Source of the DNA: Escherichia coli
GTDB lineage: Bacteria; Pseudomonadota; Gammaproteobacteria; Enterobacterales; Enterobacteriaceae
DNA length: 64,000 nt
Assembly: GCF_003334815.1 (NCBI RefSeq)
Contig: NZ_QOWO01000023.1
Direction: 5' to 3' (one strand)
The notes under the pieces were generated by a model. That model saw nothing but the letters and a program-made list of their open reading frames with translations, ran no database searches and was not told the origin of the DNA. Each line of letters opens with the position of its first letter. The first letter of the stretch is position 1. Shown here piece after piece: positions 32,412 to 40,130 of this stretch. Both the position numbers and the translations under genes were made by a program.

Positions 32412-34091
32412 GTGAACAAAATATTTTCCTCACATGTGATGCCTTTCCGCGCTCTGATCGACGCTTGCTGGAAAGAAAAATATACTGCCGCACGGTTTAC
32501 CCGTGACCTGATTGCCGGGATAACCGTCGGGATTATTGCTATCCCGCTGGCGATGGCGTTGGCTATTGGTAGTGGTGTGGCACCCCAGTACGGTTTATAT
32601 ACCGCAGCTGTTGCGGGGATTGTCATTGCTCTGACGGGTGGGTCACGCTTTAGCGTTTCCGGTCCGACTGCGGCATTTGTGGTAATTCTCTATCCCGTGT
32701 CGCAACAGTTTGGACTGGCAGGACTGCTGGTTGCGACCTTGCTGTCGGGGATCTTTTTGATTCTGATGGGTCTGGCACGCTTTGGTCGCCTGATTGAGTA
32801 TATTCCGGTTTCCGTCACCTTAGGTTTCACCTCGGGTATCGGGATCACCATCGGTACCATGCAGATTAAAGATTTTCTCGGTCTGCAAATGGCCCATGTC
32901 CCGGAACATTATCTACAAAAAGTCGGCGCATTATTTATGGCGCTGCCGACCATTAATGTGGGTGATGCTGCCATTGGCATTGTGACGCTAGGTATTCTTG
33001 TTTTTTGGCCGCGTCTGGGCATTCGTTTACCCGGTCACCTTCCGGCCTTGCTGGCTGGTTGCGCGGTGATGGGGATTGTTAACCTGCTCGGCGGACATGT
33101 TGCTACCATCGGTTCGCAATTCCACTACGTCCTGGCCGATGGTTCTCAGGGTAACGGTATTCCGCAACTGCTGCCGCAACTGGTGCTGCCGTGGGATCTG
33201 CCTAATTCAGAATTCACGCTAACCTGGGATTCTATTCGCACACTGCTGCCTGCGGCATTCTCAATGGCAATGCTCGGCGCAATCGAATCTCTGCTCTGCG
33301 CCGTGGTGCTGGATGGTATGACCGGGACGAAACACAAGGCGAACAGCGAACTGGTTGGACAGGGACTGGGGAATATTATCGCTCCGTTCTTTGGTGGTAT
33401 TACCGCTACAGCTGCCATCGCGCGTTCTGCCGCTAACGTCCGTGCCGGGGCAACGTCCCCTATCTCGGCGGTGATCCACTCTATTCTGGTTATTCTTGCC
33501 CTGCTGGTACTGGCACCGCTGCTCTCCTGGCTGCCGCTTTCCGCCATGGCAGCCCTGCTGTTGATGGTGGCGTGGAACATGAGTGAAGCGCACAAAGTGG
33601 TCGACTTGCTGCGTCATGCGCCGAAAGATGACATCATCGTCATGCTGCTGTGCATGTCGCTGACCGTGTTGTTTGATATGGTTATTGCCATCAGCGTGGG
33701 GATCGTGCTGGCATCGCTGCTGTTTATGCGTCGTATCGCACGTATGACTCGCCTGGCACCGGTAGTCGTAGATGTTCCAGACGATGTCCTGGTTCTGCGC
33801 GTTATTGGCCCGCTGTTTTTTGCTGCTGCTGAAGGCTTATTCACGGACCTGGAGTCACGTCTTGAAGGCAAACGGATTGTGATTCTGAAGTGGGATGCCG
33901 TTCCGGTACTTGATGCTGGTGGTCTTGATGCGTTCCAGCGTTTTGTGAAGCGTCTGCCCGAGGGATGTGAACTGCGCGTGTGCAACGTGGAATTCCAGCC
34001 ACTGCGCACTATGGCTCGCGCTGGCATTCAACCGATCCCGGGACGCCTGGCGTTCTTCCCGAATCGTCGCGCGGCGATGGCGGATTTATAA
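32412..34091 (+). CDS. dauA: C4-dicarboxylic acid transporter DauA (SLC26/SulP family, STAS domain)
   Basis: 559-aa ORF from GTG start; recognised DauA/YchM. Confidence 0.94.
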
Positions 34092-34145
34092 GTACGAGAT
34101 TGACCAGTCTGCGCAAACTGACTGGTCAGCAAACTGCATTATTTG

Positions 34146-34424
34146 TTAGCTATGACGGCGATTATCGCTACGGCGGCAACGTTTGTCATAGTGGCGAACC
34201 CACCAGTAACGGTCGCACACCTGTTCATGCCCGCCAACACGGGCACCCGCCAGCCAGAGAATGGCACCGACGAAAATACTTAGCACTGCACCATGTGCGA
34301 AATACTGGGGCATATTAAACTGTGGTAACTGGTTGAGGATTGAATACCCCACGCCGACCACCATTACCACCAGACCCAACCCCATGAGCACGTTACCGAG
34401 TAACGAAGCGTTTTTGCGTTTCAT
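34146..34424 (-). CDS. ychH: small inner membrane protein YchH
   Basis: 92-aa ORF with two hydrophobic segments, ATG start. Confidence 0.88.
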   Translation of the reverse strand: MKRKNASLLGNVLMGLGLVVMVVGVGYSILNQLPQFNMPQYFAHGAVLSIFVGAILWLAGARVGGHEQVCDRYWWVRHYDKRCRRSDNRRHS

Positions 34425-34701
34425 ATGTCACCTCCGGAACTTTCTGGGTTGTAACAGGGAATACCCCTCTTCCTTATGTGTAAAGTATAGACAACACCCA
34501 GTGGGTTATGTGCGGGCGTGATCACAATTACAACCCTTATTTCAACAAAACTTTACAAATAAACGCCTGAACACCTTGACTTTCTAATAGTCCACTCAGG
34601 CAATTATTACGTTATCTGCATTTGATACGCAGTTTTTTGTCAAGCGGGGCCGCAACCAGTAAACTACGCGCCAGTTATGTACACACTCAGGACAAAAAAA
34701 C

Positions 34702-35286
34702 GTGACGATTAAATTGATTGTCGGCCTGGCGAACCCCGGTGCTGAATACGCCGCAACGCGACATAATGCTGGTGCCTGGTTCGTTGACTTACTGGCAGAG
34801 CGTTTGCGCGCTCCGCTGCGCGAAGAGGCTAAATTCTTTGGTTATACTTCGCGAGTCACTCTTGGAGGCGAAGATGTCCGCCTGTTAGTCCCGACTACAT
34901 TTATGAATCTCAGCGGCAAAGCCGTTGCGGCGATGGCCAGTTTTTTCCGCATTAATCCGGACGAAATTCTGGTGGCCCACGACGAACTGGATCTGCCTCC
35001 TGGCGTCGCCAAATTTAAATTGGGCGGTGGCCATGGTGGTCACAATGGACTGAAAGACATCATCAGTAAATTGGGTAATAACCCTAACTTTCACCGTTTA
35101 CGCATCGGAATCGGTCATCCGGGCGATAAAAATAAAGTTGTCGGTTTTGTGTTAGGCAAACCGCCTGTTAGTGAACAGAAGTTAATTGATGAAGCCATTG
35201 ACGAAGCGGCGCGTTGTACTGAAATGTGGTTTACAGATGGCTTGACCAAAGCAACGAACCGATTGCACGCCTTTAAAGCGCAATAA
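34702..35286 (+). CDS. pth: peptidyl-tRNA hydrolase
   Basis: 194-aa ORF from GTG start ([13 protein letters not shown]...); recognised Pth. Confidence 0.96.
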
Positions 35287-35402
35287 GTCGTTGTCTGCGG
35301 CATTTTTGCCGAGTGCCGTGTATAATAGGCAAAGTTATTTCCATTTCTGCAATCTGTTAGCAATAACAGGTTGATTATTAAGATATTAAGGTGATTTAAA
35401 TC

Positions 35403-36494
35403 ATGGGATTCAAATGCGGTATCGTCGGTTTGCCCAACGTCGGGAAATCTACCCTGTTCAACGCGCTGACCAAAGCCGGTATTGAAGCGGCCAACTTTCC
35501 ATTCTGCACCATTGAGCCGAACACAGGCGTCGTACCAATGCCTGATCCTCGCCTGGATCAACTGGCTGAAATCGTAAAACCGCAGCGTACGCTTCCCACG
35601 ACCATGGAATTTGTCGATATCGCCGGTCTGGTAAAAGGCGCATCGAAAGGCGAAGGTCTGGGTAACCAGTTCCTGACCAACATCCGTGAAACCGAAGCGA
35701 TCGGTCACGTTGTTCGCTGCTTTGAAAATGACAACATCATTCACGTTTCCGGCAAAGTTAACCCGGCTGACGATATTGAAGTTATCAACACCGAACTGGC
35801 GCTGGCAGACCTCGACACCTGCGAACGTGCGATTCATCGCGTACAGAAGAAAGCCAAAGGTGGCGATAAAGACGCGAAAGCTGAGCTGGCGGTCCTGGAA
35901 AAATGCCTGCCCCAGTTGGAAAATGCAGGTATGCTGCGCGCGCTGGATTTAAGCGCTGAAGAGAAAGCGGCTATTCGTTACCTGAGCTTCCTGACGCTGA
36001 AACCAACAATGTACATCGCCAACGTCAACGAAGACGGTTTTGAAAACAACCCATATCTTGACCAGGTGCGTGAAATCGCGGCGAAAGAAGGTTCTGTTGT
36101 GGTTCCGGTTTGTGCTGCTGTTGAAGCAGACATTGCCGAACTGGACGACGAAGAACGTGACGAGTTTATGCAGGAGCTTGGGCTGGAAGAGCCGGGCCTG
36201 AACCGTGTGATCCGTGCCGGTTATAAACTGCTGAACCTGCAAACTTACTTCACCGCTGGGGTGAAAGAAGTGCGTGCATGGACCATTCCGGTTGGAGCAA
36301 CCGCGCCGCAGGCAGCGGGCAAAATCCATACTGATTTTGAAAAAGGCTTTATCCGTGCACAAACCATCTCGTTTGAAGATTTCATCACTTACAAAGGTGA
36401 ACAAGGCGCGAAAGAAGCAGGCAAAATGCGTGCAGAAGGTAAAGATTACATCGTGAAAGATGGCGATGTGATGAACTTCCTTTTCAACGTCTAA
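35403..36494 (+). CDS. ychF: ribosome-binding ATPase YchF (Obg-family GTPase)
   Basis: 363-aa ORF with P-loop GLPNVGKST; recognised YchF. Confidence 0.96.
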
Positions 36495-36553
36495 TTAATT
36501 TATTGTCTCATGAGGTTTCGCTAAATCTCATGAAGAGCGCAAAAGTATATAAA

Positions 36554-36577
36554 ATCCACGCAATTGCGTGGATTTTT
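36554..36577 (+). terminator. rho-independent terminator after ychF
   Basis: hairpin atccacgc-aatt-gcgtggat followed by T5. Confidence 0.7.
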
Positions 36578-37262
36578 CATTTCACCGAGTCCTAATCATT
36601 CTTGTAACATCCTACACTTTTGTGCTTATTGCCTATAGTGAACCACGAGAATAATTAAAGACATAAGTGTTCAGATGACGGATATCTCATTAGCAGTGAT
36701 ATAACGTAAGTTTTTGTATCACTACACATCAGCCCCCTTCACAGCTGATCAAAATTGATCACGCTCCAATATGCTGGCAAGATGAAAATGATAACCAGTA
36801 GCACAATAACAACGATAGGCCAGAAAACCCATTGACCAAAAATGAATATCGATGTTTTTTGCTTTTTCTTATTAGTAATGCAAAAATGGCGCATATTGTT
36901 TTTGTTATGCAGATACATCAAGCGAAATTCCCATAACTAATTAGGATTATTACAAAAAATCTTCACCAAATTTTTTAACCGCTGTTTGTTGTAATATTTT
37001 TGCCATATTTATAGTAACGAATTGGAATAAGTAACGACAACTTAGGGAATAACTCGATATAAACTCACCTTTGTAAGGGGGATGTTAAATATATATTAAT
37101 TCCTGTGTTCCTGATTTTGCCCGGTAATAGAGAATTATTCTCTGAGAAGCTCATCATGATTGCACCATACAAATATCATGATGATAAGAGGATATTATTC
37201 ATTGATTTAAACAAAATGACAAAATCCATAGACCCATAGTCTGGGTACTATATAGGAGTGGT

Positions 37263-40130
37263 ATGGGCATCAAACAACACAATGGGAATACCAAAGCAGA
37301 TCGTCTCGCTGAATTAAAAATCCGTTCGCCCTCAATTCAACTGATAAAATTTGGCGCTATTGGTTTGAATGCAATTATCTTTTCCCCCCTGCTGATAGCT
37401 GCTGATACAGGAAGTCAATATGGCACCAATATTACTATTAATGATGGTGACAGAATTACAGGAGATACCGCCGATCCATCAGGAAACCTCTATGGTGTAA
37501 TGACCCCAGCAGGAAACACGCCTGGCAATATCAACCTGGGTAATGATGTCACCGTCAATGTCAACGACGCCTCTGGATATGCAAAAGGAATCATTATTCA
37601 GGGCAAAAACAGCTCCCTGACAGCTAACCGACTCACAGTAGATGTTGTTGGTCAAACCTCTGCCATCGGCATTAACTTAATTGGTGACTATACCCATGCT
37701 GACTTAGGCACAGGCAGCACCATTAAGAGTAACGATGACGGCATCATTATTGGGCATAGCTCAACACTAACAGCCACTCAATTCACCATTGAAAACTCGA
37801 ACGGTATAGGCCTAACCATCAATGACTATGGCACCAGTGTCGATCTTGGAAGCGGAAGTAAAATCACGACCGATGGAAGTACAGGTGTTTATATCGGTGG
37901 TCTCAACGGCAATAACGCCAATGGTGCTGCGCGTTTTACGGCTACAGACCTGACAATCGATGTTCAGGGCTACAGCGCCATGGGGATAAACGTACAGAAA
38001 AACTCTGTTGTCGATCTCGGAACAAACAGTACCATTAAAACCAATGGCGATAATGCTCACGGCCTCTGGAGCTTTGGCCAGGTTAGCGCGAATGCACTCA
38101 CTGTTGATGTAACTGGAGCCGCGGCCAATGGCGTCGAAGTTCGTGGTGGTACAACCACTATCGGTGCAGATAGCCATATTTCTTCCGCGCAGGGCGGTGG
38201 CCTCGTCACCAGTGGTTCAGACGCGATAATCAATTTTACTGGCACGGCAGCGCAACGAAACAGCATCTTTTCCGGCGGTTCTTATGGTGCCTCGGCCCAG
38301 ACGGCAACGGCTGTTGTCAACATGCAAAATACCGATATTACAGTTGATCGTAATGGCAGTCTGGCGCTGGGTTTGTGGGCTCTCAGCGGCGGTAGAATAA
38401 CCGGAGACAGTTTGGCTATCACCGGCGCGGCAGGAGCCAGGGGAATTTATGCCATGACCAACAGCCAGATCGACCTCACGAGCGATCTGGTCATTGATAT
38501 GAGTACACCCGACCAGATGGCCATCGCAACGCAACATGACGATGGTTATGCCGCCAGCCGCATCAACGCCTCGGGTCGTATGCTTATCAACGGTAGCGTT
38601 CTTTCCAAAGGTGGGCTAATCAATCTGGATATGCACCCTGGGTCGGTTTGGACAGGTTCCTCCCTCAGCGATAATGTCAATGGCGGAAAACTGGACGTTG
38701 CAATGAATAACAGCGTCTGGAACGTAACAAGTAATTCTAATCTCGACACGCTGGCGCTGAGCCATTCAACTGTCGATTTTGCCAGCCACGGGTCAACTGC
38801 CGGCACATTTGCCACATTAAACGTAGAGAACCTGAGCGGTAACAGTACCTTTATTATGCGTGCTGATGTTGTTGGCGAGGGTAATGGCGTTAATAATAAA
38901 GGGGATTTATTGAATATCAGCGGGAGTAGTGCTGGTAATCACGTATTGGCTATCCGCAACCAGGGCAGCGAGGCCACAACGGGAAATGAAGTTCTGACAG
39001 TGGTAAAAACCACTGACGGCGCGGCCTCGTTCAGCGCGTCTTCTCAGGTTGAGTTGGGGGGATATCTGTACGATGTGCGTAAAAATGGCACTAACTGGGA
39101 GCTTTACGCTTCCGGGACAGTTCCGGAACCGACTCCTAATCCTGAACCCACACCAGCTCCCGCTCAGCCTCCCATAGTCAACCCCGATCCTACGCCTGAA
39201 CCCGCTCCCACGCCTAAACCCACCACGACCGCAGATGCTGGCGGCAATTATCTCAATGTCGGTTACTTATTGAACTATGTTGAAAACCGTACGCTGATGC
39301 AACGGATGGGTGACCTGCGAAATCAGAGTAAAGACGGTAATATCTGGTTGCGCAGTTATGGGGGAAGCCTGGACTCCTTTGCCAGTGGCAAACTGAGCGG
39401 CTTTGACATGGGTTACAGCGGTATCCAGTTTGGTGGGGATAAACGTCTCTCTGATGTAATGCCGTTGTATGTCGGTCTGTATATTGGCTCAACACATGCA
39501 TCGCCGGACTATAGCGGAGGCGACGGTACCGCACGTTCAGACTACATGGGAATGTACGCCAGTTACATGGCACAAAACGGTTTTTACAGCGATCTCGTTA
39601 TAAAAGCATCGCGCCAGAAAAATAGTTTCCACGTACTGGACAGTCAGAACAACGGCGTTAACGCCAACGGCACTGCGAATGGAATGAGCATCTCCCTGGA
39701 AGCCGGGCAGAGGTTCAACCTGTCCCCTACTGGTTATGGGTTCTATATAGAGCCGCAAACCCAGCTTACATACAGCCACCAGAATGAGATGACTATGAAG
39801 GCGAGTAATGGCCTCAATATACATCTGAATCACTACGAATCGCTGCTGGGGCGTGCCAGCATGATACTGGGGTATGACATCACCGCAGGCAACAGCCAGC
39901 TGAATGTCTATGTGAAGACTGGCGCTATCCGCGAGTTTTCAGGGGATACCGAATATCTGTTGAACAACTCCCGGGAGAAGTACAGTTTCAAAGGTAATGG
40001 CTGGAATAACGGCGTGGGAGTCAGTGCACAGTATAACAAACAGCACACATTCTATCTCGAAGCGGATTACACGCAGGGTAACCTCTTTGATCAGAAGCAA
40101 GTCAACGGAGGATATCGCTTCAGCTTTTAA
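37263..40130 (+). CDS. ycgV: autotransporter adhesin (type Va), passenger beta-helix + Pro-rich linker + C-terminal beta-barrel
   Basis: 955-aa ORF with repetitive G/T/N-rich passenger, PEPTPNPEPTPAPAQPP linker, C-terminal barrel ending in ...GGYRFSF; recognised YcgV. Confidence 0.9.
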   Translation: MGIKQHNGNTKADRLAELKIRSPSIQLIKFGAIGLNAIIFSPLLIAADTGSQYGTNITINDGDRITGDTADPSGNLYGVMTPAGNTPGNINLGNDVTVNVNDASGYAKGIIIQGKNSSLTANRLTVDVVGQTSAIGINLIGDYTHADLGTGSTIKSNDDGIIIGHSSTLTATQFTIENSNGIGLTINDYGTSVDLGSGSKITTDGSTGVYIGGLNGNNANGAARFTATDLTIDVQGYSAMGINVQKNSVVDLGTNSTIKTNGDNAHGLWSFGQVSANALTVDVTGAAANGVEVRGGTTTIGADSHISSAQGGGLVTSGSDAIINFTGTAAQRNSIFSGGSYGASAQTATAVVNMQNTDITVDRNGSLALGLWALSGGRITGDSLAITGAAGARGIYAMTNSQIDLTSDLVIDMSTPDQMAIATQHDDGYAASRINASGRMLINGSVLSKGGLINLDMHPGSVWTGSSLSDNVNGGKLDVAMNNSVWNVTSNSNLDTLALSHSTVDFASHGSTAGTFATLNVENLSGNSTFIMRADVVGEGNGVNNKGDLLNISGSSAGNHVLAIRNQGSEATTGNEVLTVVKTTDGAASFSASSQVELGGYLYDVRKNGTNWELYASGTVPEPTPNPEPTPAPAQPPIVNPDPTPEPAPTPKPTTTADAGGNYLNVGYLLNYVENRTLMQRMGDLRNQSKDGNIWLRSYGGSLDSFASGKLSGFDMGYSGIQFGGDKRLSDVMPLYVGLYIGSTHASPDYSGGDGTARSDYMGMYASYMAQNGFYSDLVIKASRQKNSFHVLDSQNNGVNANGTANGMSISLEAGQRFNLSPTGYGFYIEPQTQLTYSHQNEMTMKASNGLNIHLNHYESLLGRASMILGYDITAGNSQLNVYVKTGAIREFSGDTEYLLNNSREKYSFKGNGWNNGVGVSAQYNKQHTFYLEADYTQGNLFDQKQVNGGYRFSF

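What the first reader, a model, noticed from the sequence alone, without database searches (positions are those of the whole stretch)
36739..36918. Candidate small membrane protein ORF in the ychF-ycgV intergenic region
A minus-strand ORF (ATG at 36918; ...MRHFCITNKKKQKTSIFIFGQWVFWPIVVIVLLVIIFILPAYWSVINFDQL) encodes a lysine-rich segment followed by a single predicted transmembrane helix. It lies in an AT-rich intergenic region with only a weak Shine-Dalgarno-like GGGA, and AT-rich DNA readily yields spurious ORFs rich in I/F/L/K, so this is low-confidence.
Basis: inference. Interest (0 to 1): 0.25.

Follow-up and report, generated by a model that had tools for sequence, protein, structure and literature searches.

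The report
Orphan ORF in silenced ychF-ycgV spacer
The 59-codon reading frame is really there and looks like a small membrane protein, but it exists only in some E. coli, comes in three different lengths, changes as freely as the non-coding DNA around it and lies in DNA that the cell keeps silenced, so it is most likely not a working gene.

Summary
There is a minus-strand ORF at 36739-36918 (59 codons: K-rich stretch, then a 24-residue hydrophobic run) in the 33.7%-GC ychF-ycgV spacer of a K-12-like E. coli. An ORF this long is not rare by chance (18-32% of shuffled spacers).

It is not new. It is ECs5422 of the old O157:H7 Sakai annotation, since dropped, and gene callers have produced it many times as a "hypothetical/membrane protein".

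Evidence against a functional gene:
- No homologue exists outside this E. coli locus.
- The locus is absent from about 24% of complete E. coli genomes.
- The rest carry three forms: 84 aa (about 8%), 67 aa with a premature TAA (about 31%) and 59 aa (about 37%; K-12 type, an in-frame 75-bp deletion between GCCAG repeats).
- Substitutions are neutral: 6 synonymous and 19 non-synonymous against 6.7 expected, and third codon positions vary least.
- The spacer is a published H-NS-bound "promoter island" with a Rho-termination region antisense to the ORF.
- Published RIBOseq in O157 is weak (6.4 RPKM, 36% coverage).

One counter-signal remains: the hydrophobic run and its three-base periodicity exceed what composition predicts (P about 0.001-0.004).

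Verdict: a neutrally evolving orphan ORF, either a decaying relic or an unfixed proto-gene. Low interest.

The parts
36739..36918 (-). The ORF: 59 codons plus a TGA stop (K-12-type deletion allele). An alternative in-frame TTG start lies at 36921 and an internal ATG at 36894. It corresponds to MG1655 1256297-1256476 (+) and is the same ORF as ECs5422 of the old O157:H7 Sakai annotation (67-aa allele).
   Evidence: identity with ECs5422
36928..36932 (-). Weak Shine-Dalgarno-like GGGAA, 9 nt upstream of the ATG at 36918.
   Evidence: -4.2 kcal/mol; Huecker 2017 S4 lists an SD 8 nt upstream at -5.4 kcal/mol for ECs5422
36856..36873 (-). Lysine-rich stretch NKKKQK (codons 16-21).
36778..36849 (-). 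Hydrophobic, TM-like segment (codons 24-47, IFIFGQWVFWPIVVIVLLVIIFIL). T occupies codon position 2 in 19 of 24 codons.
36774..36778 (-). The retained GCCAG copy at the junction of a 75-bp in-frame deletion. The junction lies between 36778 and 36779. Long alleles carry 25 extra codons here, flanked by GCCAG on both sides.
36804..37104 (.). Published 'promoter island' (U00096.2 1255333 + 301 bp, converted with an offset of about +778). It is H-NS-bound in all the ChIP studies compared and is associated with predicted foreign genes. It covers the ORF start, its 5' half and about 190 bp upstream. The coordinates are approximate.
   Evidence: PMC3661553 Table 1
36876..36876 (+). Centre of a Rho-termination region on the ychF/ycgV strand, antisense to the ORF: MG1655 1256339 (-), Rho score 5.86, p = 1.7e-15.
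   Evidence: PMC7815308 Supplementary file 2
36551..36579 (.). Bidirectional intrinsic terminator hairpin of ychF (36551-36576). The Term-seq 3' end maps to 36579 on the + strand (MG1655 1256636 -). On the minus strand it lies about 165-190 nt downstream of the ORF stop and is the only terminator available to an ORF-sense transcript.
   Evidence: PMC7815308 Supplementary file 1; Huecker S4 lists a terminator 206 bp downstream
37137..37262 (+). ycgV promoter fragment bound by YbdO in EMSA (primers map exactly here). It shows that the ycgV-proximal third of the spacer is the ycgV control region and does not overlap the ORF.
   Evidence: PMC11681634 primer table mapped onto sequence

Best explanation
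The ORF is a real open frame but most likely not a gene under selection. It is an E. coli-restricted orphan ORF inside the AT-rich, H-NS-bound spacer ('promoter island') that separates the ychF terminator from the cryptic adhesin gene ycgV. Today it evolves like the surrounding non-coding DNA.

Shown here:
- The ancestral-looking form is 84 codons with two hydrophobic segments.
- A CAA/TAA polymorphism at codon 68 truncates it to 67 aa in the most common long allele.
- In the K-12 lineage a 75-bp slippage deletion between two GCCAG repeats removed codons 48-72, including that stop. By chance (probability 1/3) this re-fused the frame to the last 12 codons and produced the 59-codon ORF of this window.

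From the literature: the DNA is bound by H-NS, transcription on the opposite strand is stopped by Rho inside the ORF, and ribosome occupancy of the O157 allele is weak.

Inferred: the hydrophobic run and its codon-like T periodicity are an imprint of coding that is no longer maintained or was never fixed. That makes the ORF either a decaying relic that arrived with the ycgV island or a proto-gene born from T-rich DNA. If it is occasionally translated, the product would be a short N-in inner-membrane peptide with no selected function.
For: (1) Taxonomic restriction.
- phmmer of the 84-aa form against 1.84 billion representative proteins gives 14 hits, nearly all alleles of this locus.
- The word-indexed search gives 96 clusters, and all named ones are E. 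coli or Shigella.
- The scan of 100,044 species-representative genomes gives 2 loci, both 99.7% identical E. coli contamination.
- tblastn gives 9 plasmid-collection hits, all E. coli, and no phage hits.
- There is no Pfam, NCBIfam or PHROGs family.

(2) Presence and length polymorphism.
- The locus is present in 4118 of 5426 complete genomes.
- The 75-bp segment is present in 2122 of them: 1707 at >=95% identity to the TAA type and 415 at 90-95%, as expected for the CAA type. About 2000 genomes therefore carry the deletion.
- Twelve aligned alleles give 2 x 59 aa, 6 x 67 aa and 4 x 84 aa.
- The locus is absent in ST131, where an integrase follows ychF, and is cut by IS1 in other strains.

(3) Neutral substitution pattern.
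- There are 6 synonymous and 19 non-synonymous changes, against 6.7 synonymous expected under neutrality.
- Changes by codon position 1/2/3 are 13/7/5.
- Variable-site density is 9.0% in the ORF and 7.0% and 11.0% in the flanking spacer.
- omega <= 0.5 is rejected at p = 0.047 and omega <= 0.3 at p = 0.002.

(4) Annotation. Nothing is annotated here in NC_000913.3 or by PGAP in about 70 sampled genomes. ECs5422 was removed from NC_002695.2.

(5) Context. The spacer is an H-NS-bound promoter island (PMC3661553). A Rho-termination region lies antisense to the ORF, and no ORF-sense 3' end was mapped in three growth conditions (PMC7815308).

(6) Expression in O157. RNA is 5-11 RPKM. RIBOseq is 6.4, 1.1 and 0.2 RPKM, and coverage is 0.36, 0.23 and 0.04, always below the authors' 0.5 criterion (PMC5597208).

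(7) Translation signals. The SD is weak, and an ORF of this length is not unusual by chance.
Against: - The hydrophobic run is far stronger than composition predicts (P = 0.0004 to 0.004), T sits at codon position 2 in 19 of 24 codons (P about 5e-4 per frame), and three-base periodicity is confined to the ORF. This is what real coding sequence looks like.
- The K-rich N-terminus followed by a TM segment obeys the positive-inside rule.
- The first 47 codons are intact in all 12 aligned alleles. The first 27 codons carry only 3 variants.
- The 84-codon form is marginally longer than chance allows (P = 0.03-0.08).
- The O157 allele has non-zero ribosome footprints, with RCV 0.69 in LB.
- Only 25 substitutions were available and they were counted without a phylogeny, so weak selection (omega of about 0.6-0.9) cannot be excluded.
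- K-12 initiation-site profiling tables could not be consulted: one was truncated in storage and the others were not held.
Confidence: 0.72

Rival explanations
1. It is a genuine, young, lineage-specific gene for a small inner-membrane protein. The functional unit would be the K-rich N-terminus plus the first TM helix (codons 1-47), with a dispensable, variable tail. It would be expressed only under conditions that relieve H-NS silencing.
For: There is a coding-like periodicity and an unusually strong TM segment. Codons 1-47 are intact in all 12 aligned alleles and in all three length classes. A weak SD, a predicted sigma-70 promoter and a downstream terminator are reported for ECs5422, and RCV is 0.69 in LB. 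Gene finders call it repeatedly.
Against: Substitutions are neutral even within codons 1-47: 3 synonymous and 10 non-synonymous, with omega <= 0.3 rejected at p = 0.02. Non-conservative changes fall inside the helix (G28D/E, P34H/L/S). No homologue exists anywhere. The locus is absent from about 24% of E. coli and is IS-disrupted in others. RIBOseq coverage stays below the study's own threshold. The curated K-12 annotation lacks it despite several small-protein discovery campaigns.
Confidence: 0.15
2. It is a pure chance ORF. AT-rich, T-biased spacer DNA happens to be open for 59-84 codons, and T-rich codons happen to read as I, F, L and V.
For: The 59-codon length is reached in 18-32% of shuffles, and 15-22% of random ORFs of this composition already exceed the usual TM threshold. 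Evolution is neutral. There are no homologues.
Against: The strength of the hydrophobic run and the T periodicity at codon position 2 are rare under every null tried, including local block shuffles with the best of three frames taken (P = 0.0008-0.004). The 84-codon form has P = 0.03-0.08.
Confidence: 0.1
3. The ORF is incidental and the DNA has a non-coding role. The A/C-rich complement of the T/G-rich ORF strand would serve as Rho loading and termination sequence, and as an H-NS nucleation site, insulating ycgV from ychF read-through. Alternatively the ORF is the toxin of an unrecognised type I toxin-antitoxin pair.
For: A Rho-termination region is centred at 36876 on the + strand. C/G ratios of 1.6-3.8 occur on that strand just upstream, at 36720-36869. 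H-NS binding is reported in all the studies compared. A small hydrophobic ORF with antisense transcription superficially resembles a type I toxin.
Against: The ORF body is no more conserved than its flanks, and the 75-bp deletion is tolerated in about 37% of genomes. No discrete antisense sRNA 3' end was mapped. There is no match to any toxin family model in NCBIfam or Pfam. There are no repeated copies, unlike ldr, hok or ibs. A composition-driven role does not explain a three-base periodicity.
Confidence: 0.03

Closest known systems
ECs5422, a hypothetical protein in the earlier RefSeq/GenBank annotation of E. coli O157:H7 Sakai
   Same: It is the same ORF at the same locus. It is 204 nt and is the only 204-nt ORF in the Sakai spacer. 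Its 67-aa composition is identical (0% Ala, 16.42% Ile, 11.94% Phe), and it was predicted as inner membrane with one TM helix.
   Different: The window carries the K-12 allele: a 75-bp in-frame deletion gives 59 aa with a different C-terminus. ECs5422 is no longer annotated in NC_002695.2.
E. coli 'promoter islands' (Panyukov & Ozoline 2013): H-NS-bound, AT-rich, transcriptionally defective spacers next to horizontally acquired genes
   Same: The ycgV/ychF spacer is one of the 78 listed islands. It is H-NS-bound in all the ChIP studies compared, and the island overlaps the ORF's start and 5' half.
   Different: That work describes a property of the DNA, not an ORF. It neither predicts nor explains the codon-like periodicity.
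Validated E. coli small membrane proteins found by conservation, SD signals and tagging (my recollection of Hemm et al. 2008 and later ribosome-profiling studies; not checked here)
   Same: The size is similar, with a single hydrophobic helix preceded by basic residues and an intergenic location.
   Different: Those proteins are conserved across enteric species, mostly have recognisable ribosome-binding sites and were detected as tagged proteins. This ORF is E. coli-only, length-polymorphic, neutrally evolving and has a weak SD.
Proto-genes and de novo TM peptides from thymine-rich non-genic DNA (concepts I recall from Carvunis et al. 2012 and Vakirlis et al. 2020 in yeast; not checked here)
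   Same: It is taxonomically restricted, has no homologues, shows weak translation, evolves neutrally and is a T-rich sequence that reads as a TM helix.
   Different: A non-genic ancestral state could not be shown, because the syntenic DNA is missing rather than non-coding in the outgroups examined. It may equally be a decaying acquired gene.
Type I toxins (Ldr, Hok, Ibs, ShoB, TisB, DinQ, ZorO)
   Same: It is a short hydrophobic single-helix peptide encoded in a spacer, with transcription on the opposite strand.
   Different: No family model matches, there is no discrete antisense sRNA, it is single-copy and there is no purifying selection. Toxicity was not tested.

Membership tests
Functional (selected) small membrane protein gene of E. 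coli | Reading frame conserved in related species or genera | tested here: not met
   No homologue was found in 100,044 species-representative genomes apart from E. coli contamination. None was found in 1.84 billion representative proteins or in plasmid and phage records.
Functional (selected) small membrane protein gene of E. coli | Purifying selection (excess of synonymous change, third-position bias) | tested here: not met
   There are 6 synonymous and 19 non-synonymous changes against 6.7 expected. Changes by codon position are 13/7/5. omega <= 0.5 is rejected at p = 0.047. The sample is small and no tree was used.
Functional (selected) small membrane protein gene of E. coli | One stable ORF length across strains | tested here: not met
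   Alleles of 84, 67 and 59 aa exist, and the locus is absent in about 24% of genomes.
Functional (selected) small membrane protein gene of E. coli | Evidence of translation (ribosome footprints, initiation peak, tagged protein) | tested here: inconclusive
   Literature only. O157 RIBOseq gives 6.4 RPKM, coverage 0.36 and RCV 0.69 in LB, and is near zero in the other two conditions. The K-12 initiation-profiling tables were truncated or not held.
Functional (selected) small membrane protein gene of E. coli | Hydrophobic helix and coding-like sequence statistics | tested here: met
   The maximum KD19 is 3.06 (P = 0.0004-0.004). T occupies codon position 2 in 19 of 24 codons. Periodicity is confined to the ORF.
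H-NS-silenced 'promoter island' spacer | AT-rich spacer next to a variably present (acquired) gene | tested here: met
   The spacer is 33.7% GC against 50.5% for the window. The locus is absent or replaced in B2/ST131 and other strains.
H-NS-silenced 'promoter island' spacer | H-NS occupancy and low productive transcription | not testable with these tools
   Taken from PMC3661553 Table 1 (H column = 'A', all studies). It is consistent with RNA at 5-11 RPKM in O157 and with a Rho-termination region.
Type I toxin-antitoxin toxin | Match to a known toxin family model | tested here: not met
   There is no NCBIfam or Pfam hit.
Type I toxin-antitoxin toxin | Discrete antisense or overlapping sRNA antitoxin | tested here: not met
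   Rfam gives only sub-threshold noise. The Term-seq tables show no sRNA-like 3' end in the spacer other than the ychF terminator.
Type I toxin-antitoxin toxin | Toxicity on overexpression | not testable with these tools
   This needs an experiment.
De novo proto-gene | Taxonomically restricted, no homologues, neutral evolution, weak expression | tested here: met
De novo proto-gene | Orthologous non-genic sequence in outgroups | tested here: inconclusive
   No outgroup carrying the syntenic spacer was recovered, so the ancestral state is unknown.

The most novel reading that the evidence does not exclude
The ORF is a very young small inner-membrane protein gene, either born de novo from T-rich spacer DNA or an orphan that came with the ycgV island, caught while still polymorphic. 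Three isoforms (84, 67 and 59 aa) segregate in E. coli, and it is translated at a low level when H-NS/Rho silencing is relaxed. It would then be a bacterial example of a TM proto-gene at the presence/absence and length-polymorphism stage.
Probability: 0.12. Interest if true: 0.45.

Novelty: already known. Interest (0 to 1): 0.15.

Why it matters
It matters little for E. coli biology. The ORF has already been predicted (ECs5422; "membrane protein" in some GenBank and UniRef records) and then dropped, and the spacer is a catalogued H-NS-bound promoter island.

The useful outcome is negative. K-12 does not appear to be missing a conserved small membrane protein here.

The one point of wider interest is methodological and evolutionary. 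An ORF can carry a clear coding-like imprint (a strong TM helix, positive-inside N-terminus, three-base periodicity, gene-finder calls and weak footprints) and still show no selection. Such ORFs are a source of false positives in small-protein discovery, or the raw material of gene birth. If the minority reading were true, the three segregating isoforms would make a convenient natural series for studying how a membrane peptide gene is born or dies.

Tried and rejected
- Known RNA element: Rfam at a permissive threshold gives only sub-threshold Leu_leader, CrcZ and mir hits. The Leu_leader hits are the ychF terminator hairpin.
- Known protein family: NCBIfam, PHROGs and Pfam give nothing significant.
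- Distant homologues and foreign origin: the exhaustive phmmer search, the genome-collection scan and tblastn of plasmids and phages return only this E. coli locus or contamination.
- K-12 translation evidence:
  - The Stringer 2021 Table S1 is held but truncated at roughly 0.6 Mb, so its silence is uninformative.
  - The Weaver 2019 preprint has no supplement held.
  - The mBio and Mol Cell DOIs are not held.
  - The smORFer supplement has no entry.
  - No paper in the library mentions ECs5422 in its text.
- Type I toxin and sRNA readings were rejected (see rival explanations).
- Fragment of a longer gene: rejected. An in-frame TAG lies 7 codons upstream of the ATG, and no longer homologue exists.
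- 75-bp indel as a mobile or REP element: rejected. It is unique to this locus and is bounded by a 5-bp direct repeat, which is typical of slippage deletion.
- Simple promoter scan: it found a single sigma-70-like site on the ORF strand, far upstream at 37222-37194, which is fewer than the shuffles give. It therefore offers no support for a dedicated promoter, although Huecker et al. predict one 132 bp upstream.

Full report
**Observation**

The window is a K-12-like E. coli segment, the reverse complement of MG1655 (MG1655 coordinate = 1293215 minus window coordinate). It contains pth, ychF (35403-36494, +), ycgV (37263-40130, +) and dhaR. In the 768-bp ychF-ycgV spacer the minus strand carries an ORF from the ATG at 36918 to the TGA ending at 36739. 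An in-frame TTG sits at 36921 and a second ATG at 36894. The spacer is 33.7% GC against 50.5% for the window. The only ribosome-binding-like element is GGGAA at 36928-36932, with a duplex energy of about -4.2 kcal/mol.

ORF length is not beyond chance. A 59-codon or longer ATG-ORF occurs in 18-32% of random spacers of the same size and composition. The 84-codon form found in other strains occurs in 3-8%.

**Is it annotated or known?**

Nothing is annotated here in the curated MG1655 record. PGAP annotates nothing in about 70 sampled complete genomes. The ORF is nevertheless not new. In the RIBOseq study of O157:H7 Sakai (PMC5597208), the control set of "250 shortest annotated genes" includes ECs5422 at 1702104-1702307, 204 nt long. 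In the current Sakai record the only 204-nt ORF in or near the spacer is this one, at 1702241-1702444, and nothing is open at the old coordinates. The paper's 67-aa composition for ECs5422 (0% Ala, 16.42% Ile, 11.94% Phe; inner membrane, one TM helix) matches the O157 allele exactly. ECs5422 is no longer present in NC_002695.2. Gene callers have also produced this ORF many times: the protein search returned 96 clusters, and every one that carries a name is from E. coli or Shigella, a few labelled "membrane protein".

**Distribution**

- An exhaustive phmmer search of the 84-aa form against 1.84 billion representative proteins returns 14 hits, nearly all alleles of this locus.
- A scan of one genome per species for 100,044 species returns two loci. 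Both are 99.7% identical to this window over their full length. They sit in an "Actinomycetes" MAG and a 400-bp, 0.84x-coverage "Streptomyces" contig, so they are E. coli contamination.
- tblastn against plasmids gives nine hits, all E. coli and several of them mislabelled chromosomes. Phages give none.
- Pfam, NCBIfam and PHROGs give nothing.
- Within E. coli the ORF region is found in 4118 of 5426 complete genomes. In ST131 an integrase and an IS element follow ychF directly. Elsewhere IS1 interrupts or truncates the region.

**Allelic forms**

Aligning 12 alleles shows that the K-12 type differs from the others by a 75-bp deletion. The deletion lies inside the ORF, is in frame and is bounded by the direct repeat GCCAG. 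The junction lies between window 36778 and 36779. Long alleles are of two kinds:

| Allele | Defining feature | Length | Approximate share of 5426 genomes |
|---|---|---|---|
| Open long form | CAA at codon 68, two hydrophobic segments | 84 aa | about 8% (415) |
| Truncated long form | TAA at codon 68 (B1 strains, O157) | 67 aa | about 31% (1707) |
| K-12 type | 75-bp deletion of codons 48-72 | 59 aa | about 37% (about 2000) |
| Locus absent | – | – | about 24% (about 1300) |

The 75-bp segment occurs in 2122 genomes. Of these, 1707 are at least 95% identical to the TAA type and 415 are 90-95% identical, as the CAA type would be. The split by identity band is an inference.

Outside the deletion, the K-12 allele shares its substitutions with the TAA-type B1 alleles. 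The deletion therefore probably removed a premature stop and happened to restore the frame to the last 12 codons. Chimeric and frameshifted singletons also occur.

**Selection**

In the 255 aligned ORF columns there are 25 variant states. Six are synonymous and 19 non-synonymous, against 6.7 synonymous expected from the observed transition/transversion mix. By codon position the counts are 13, 7 and 5, so the third position is the least variable. Variable-site density is 9.0% in the ORF and 7.0% and 11.0% in the two flanking parts of the spacer. omega <= 0.5 is rejected at p = 0.047 and omega <= 0.3 at p = 0.002. For the first 47 codons alone, which are shared by all forms, there are 3 synonymous and 10 non-synonymous changes, and omega <= 0.3 is rejected at p = 0.02. 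Changes inside the helix include G28D/E and P34H/L/S. The ORF evolves like the non-coding DNA around it.

**Context from published experiments**

- The ycgV/ychF spacer is one of 78 "promoter islands". These are dense in promoter-like sites but transcriptionally defective. This one is H-NS-bound in every ChIP study the authors compared and is associated with predicted foreign genes (PMC3661553). After coordinate conversion the island covers about 36804-37104, which includes the ORF start, its 5' half and the upstream 190 bp.
- Adams et al. 2021 (PMC7815308) map the ychF terminator 3' end at window 36579 on the + strand. They also map a Rho-termination region centred at window 36876 on the + strand, inside and antisense to the ORF (Rho score 5.86, p = 1.7e-15). 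Their tables contain no ORF-sense 3' end anywhere in the spacer in three growth conditions.
- The YbdO-bound ycgV promoter fragment maps to 37137-37262, away from the ORF.
- The spacer has been used as an insertion site for a tolQRA duplication in recoded strains.
- In O157 Sakai, ECs5422 gives the values below. The condition order is inferred from the control-group rule of RCV >= 0.25 in LB.

| Condition | RNA-seq RPKM | RIBOseq RPKM | RCV | Coverage |
|---|---|---|---|---|
| LB | 9.3 | 6.4 | 0.69 | 0.36 |
| BHI | 10.6 | 1.1 | 0.11 | 0.23 |
| Cold/osmotic stress | 5.1 | 0.2 | 0.04 | 0.04 |

- The authors required coverage of at least 0.5 to call a novel ORF translated, so ECs5422 would not have qualified. 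They also predict a promoter 132 bp upstream, an SD 8 nt upstream (-5.4 kcal/mol) and a terminator 206 bp downstream, which is the ychF hairpin.

**The counter-signal**

The hydrophobic segment is not explained by composition alone.

- Its maximum 19-residue Kyte-Doolittle mean is 3.06. That value is reached by 0.04% of random 59-codon ORFs of spacer composition and by none of 6337 open stretches in shuffled spacers.
- It is reached by 0.2-0.4% of 15-30-nt block shuffles of the ORF with the best of three frames taken, and by 0.08% of dinucleotide shuffles.
- T occupies codon position 2 in 19 of 24 codons of the segment (hypergeometric P about 5e-4 per frame).
- A chi-square test for three-base periodicity gives p = 0.02-0.04 for chunks that overlap the ORF and 0.29-0.89 elsewhere in the spacer.

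It sits alongside neutral present-day evolution.

**Interpretation**

The best-supported reading (confidence about 0.72) is an orphan ORF without present-day function. It lies in an H-NS-bound spacer where Rho terminates transcription on the opposite strand. It is either a decaying remnant that came in with the variably present ycgV region or an unfixed proto-gene. At most it is translated at a low, unselected level.

The rivals are:
- a young functional single-helix membrane protein whose variable tail does not matter (0.15);
- a pure chance ORF (0.10);
- a primarily non-coding role, or a type I toxin (0.03).

**Limits**

- No K-12 initiation-site profiling table could be consulted.
- The substitution counts are few and were not placed on a tree.
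- The allele frequencies rest on identity bands.
- The conversion of the promoter-island coordinates between MG1655 sequence versions uses an offset I recalled (about +778).
- No outgroup with the syntenic spacer was recovered, so de novo birth and decay of an acquired gene cannot be told apart.

Noticed in passing
L010 (JAEWQO010000123.1) 1-4234; L011 (NZ_JARVKW010000136.1) 1-400: A 4.4-kb contig of an 'Actinomycetes bacterium' MAG and a 400-bp, 0.84x-coverage contig of 'Streptomyces sp. DH24' are 99.7% identical to this E. coli window (33742-37975 and 36719-37118). These public assemblies contain E. coli K-12-like contamination.
   Followed up: yes
window 36495 onward; L008, L009, L018: The DNA just downstream of ychF is a variable, insertion-prone spot. 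ST131 has a tyrosine integrase and ISEc24 there instead of the spacer and ycgV. Strain 23AR0303 has IS1, a ModD fragment and a TonB-dependent receptor. O157 Sakai has ycgV truncated to a pseudogene and no dhaR listed between it and dhaK. Strain YZMc17-1 has an IS1 in the spacer.
   Followed up: partly
window 36876 (+), = MG1655 1256339 (-): A published Rho-termination region (score 5.86) lies between the ychF terminator and ycgV. C-over-G-rich stretches lie on that strand at 36720-36769 (C/G 3.8) and 36795-36869 (C/G about 1.6). Rho probably stops ychF read-through, or spacer-initiated transcripts, before ycgV.
   Followed up: partly
window 36509-36667: Sub-threshold Rfam 'Leu_leader' hits on both strands (31-33 bits against a gathering score of 50) coincide with the bidirectional ychF terminator hairpin at 36551-36576. 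They are an artefact of the hairpin plus the U-run.
   Followed up: yes
window about 36603 (U00096.2 1255834): A genomic-SELEX peak for a minor sigma holoenzyme (listed in the heat-shock sigma section of PMC5493296) falls in this spacer near the ychF terminator, oriented towards ycgV.
   Followed up: no
window 36680-36767: The most variable part of the spacer (15-16 variable sites per 60 columns, plus 1-2-bp indels) lies just after the ORF stop. The ycgV-proximal 180 bp and the ychF terminator are the most conserved parts (1-3 variable sites per 60).
   Followed up: partly
PLSDB records NZ_CP141089.1, NZ_CP134663.1, NZ_OL790696.1: These 'plasmid' records of 4.8-4.9 Mb that carry this locus are evidently chromosomes mislabelled as plasmids. 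Several records of 90-310 kb described as 'non-mobilizable plasmids' carrying it may be chromosomal fragments.
   Followed up: no
window 37263-40130 (ycgV); L007, L012, L004: ycgV itself is frameshifted or truncated in several strains (THO-008, PT62, O157 strains). This fits a cryptic gene that is often decaying, next to the decaying ORF.
   Followed up: no
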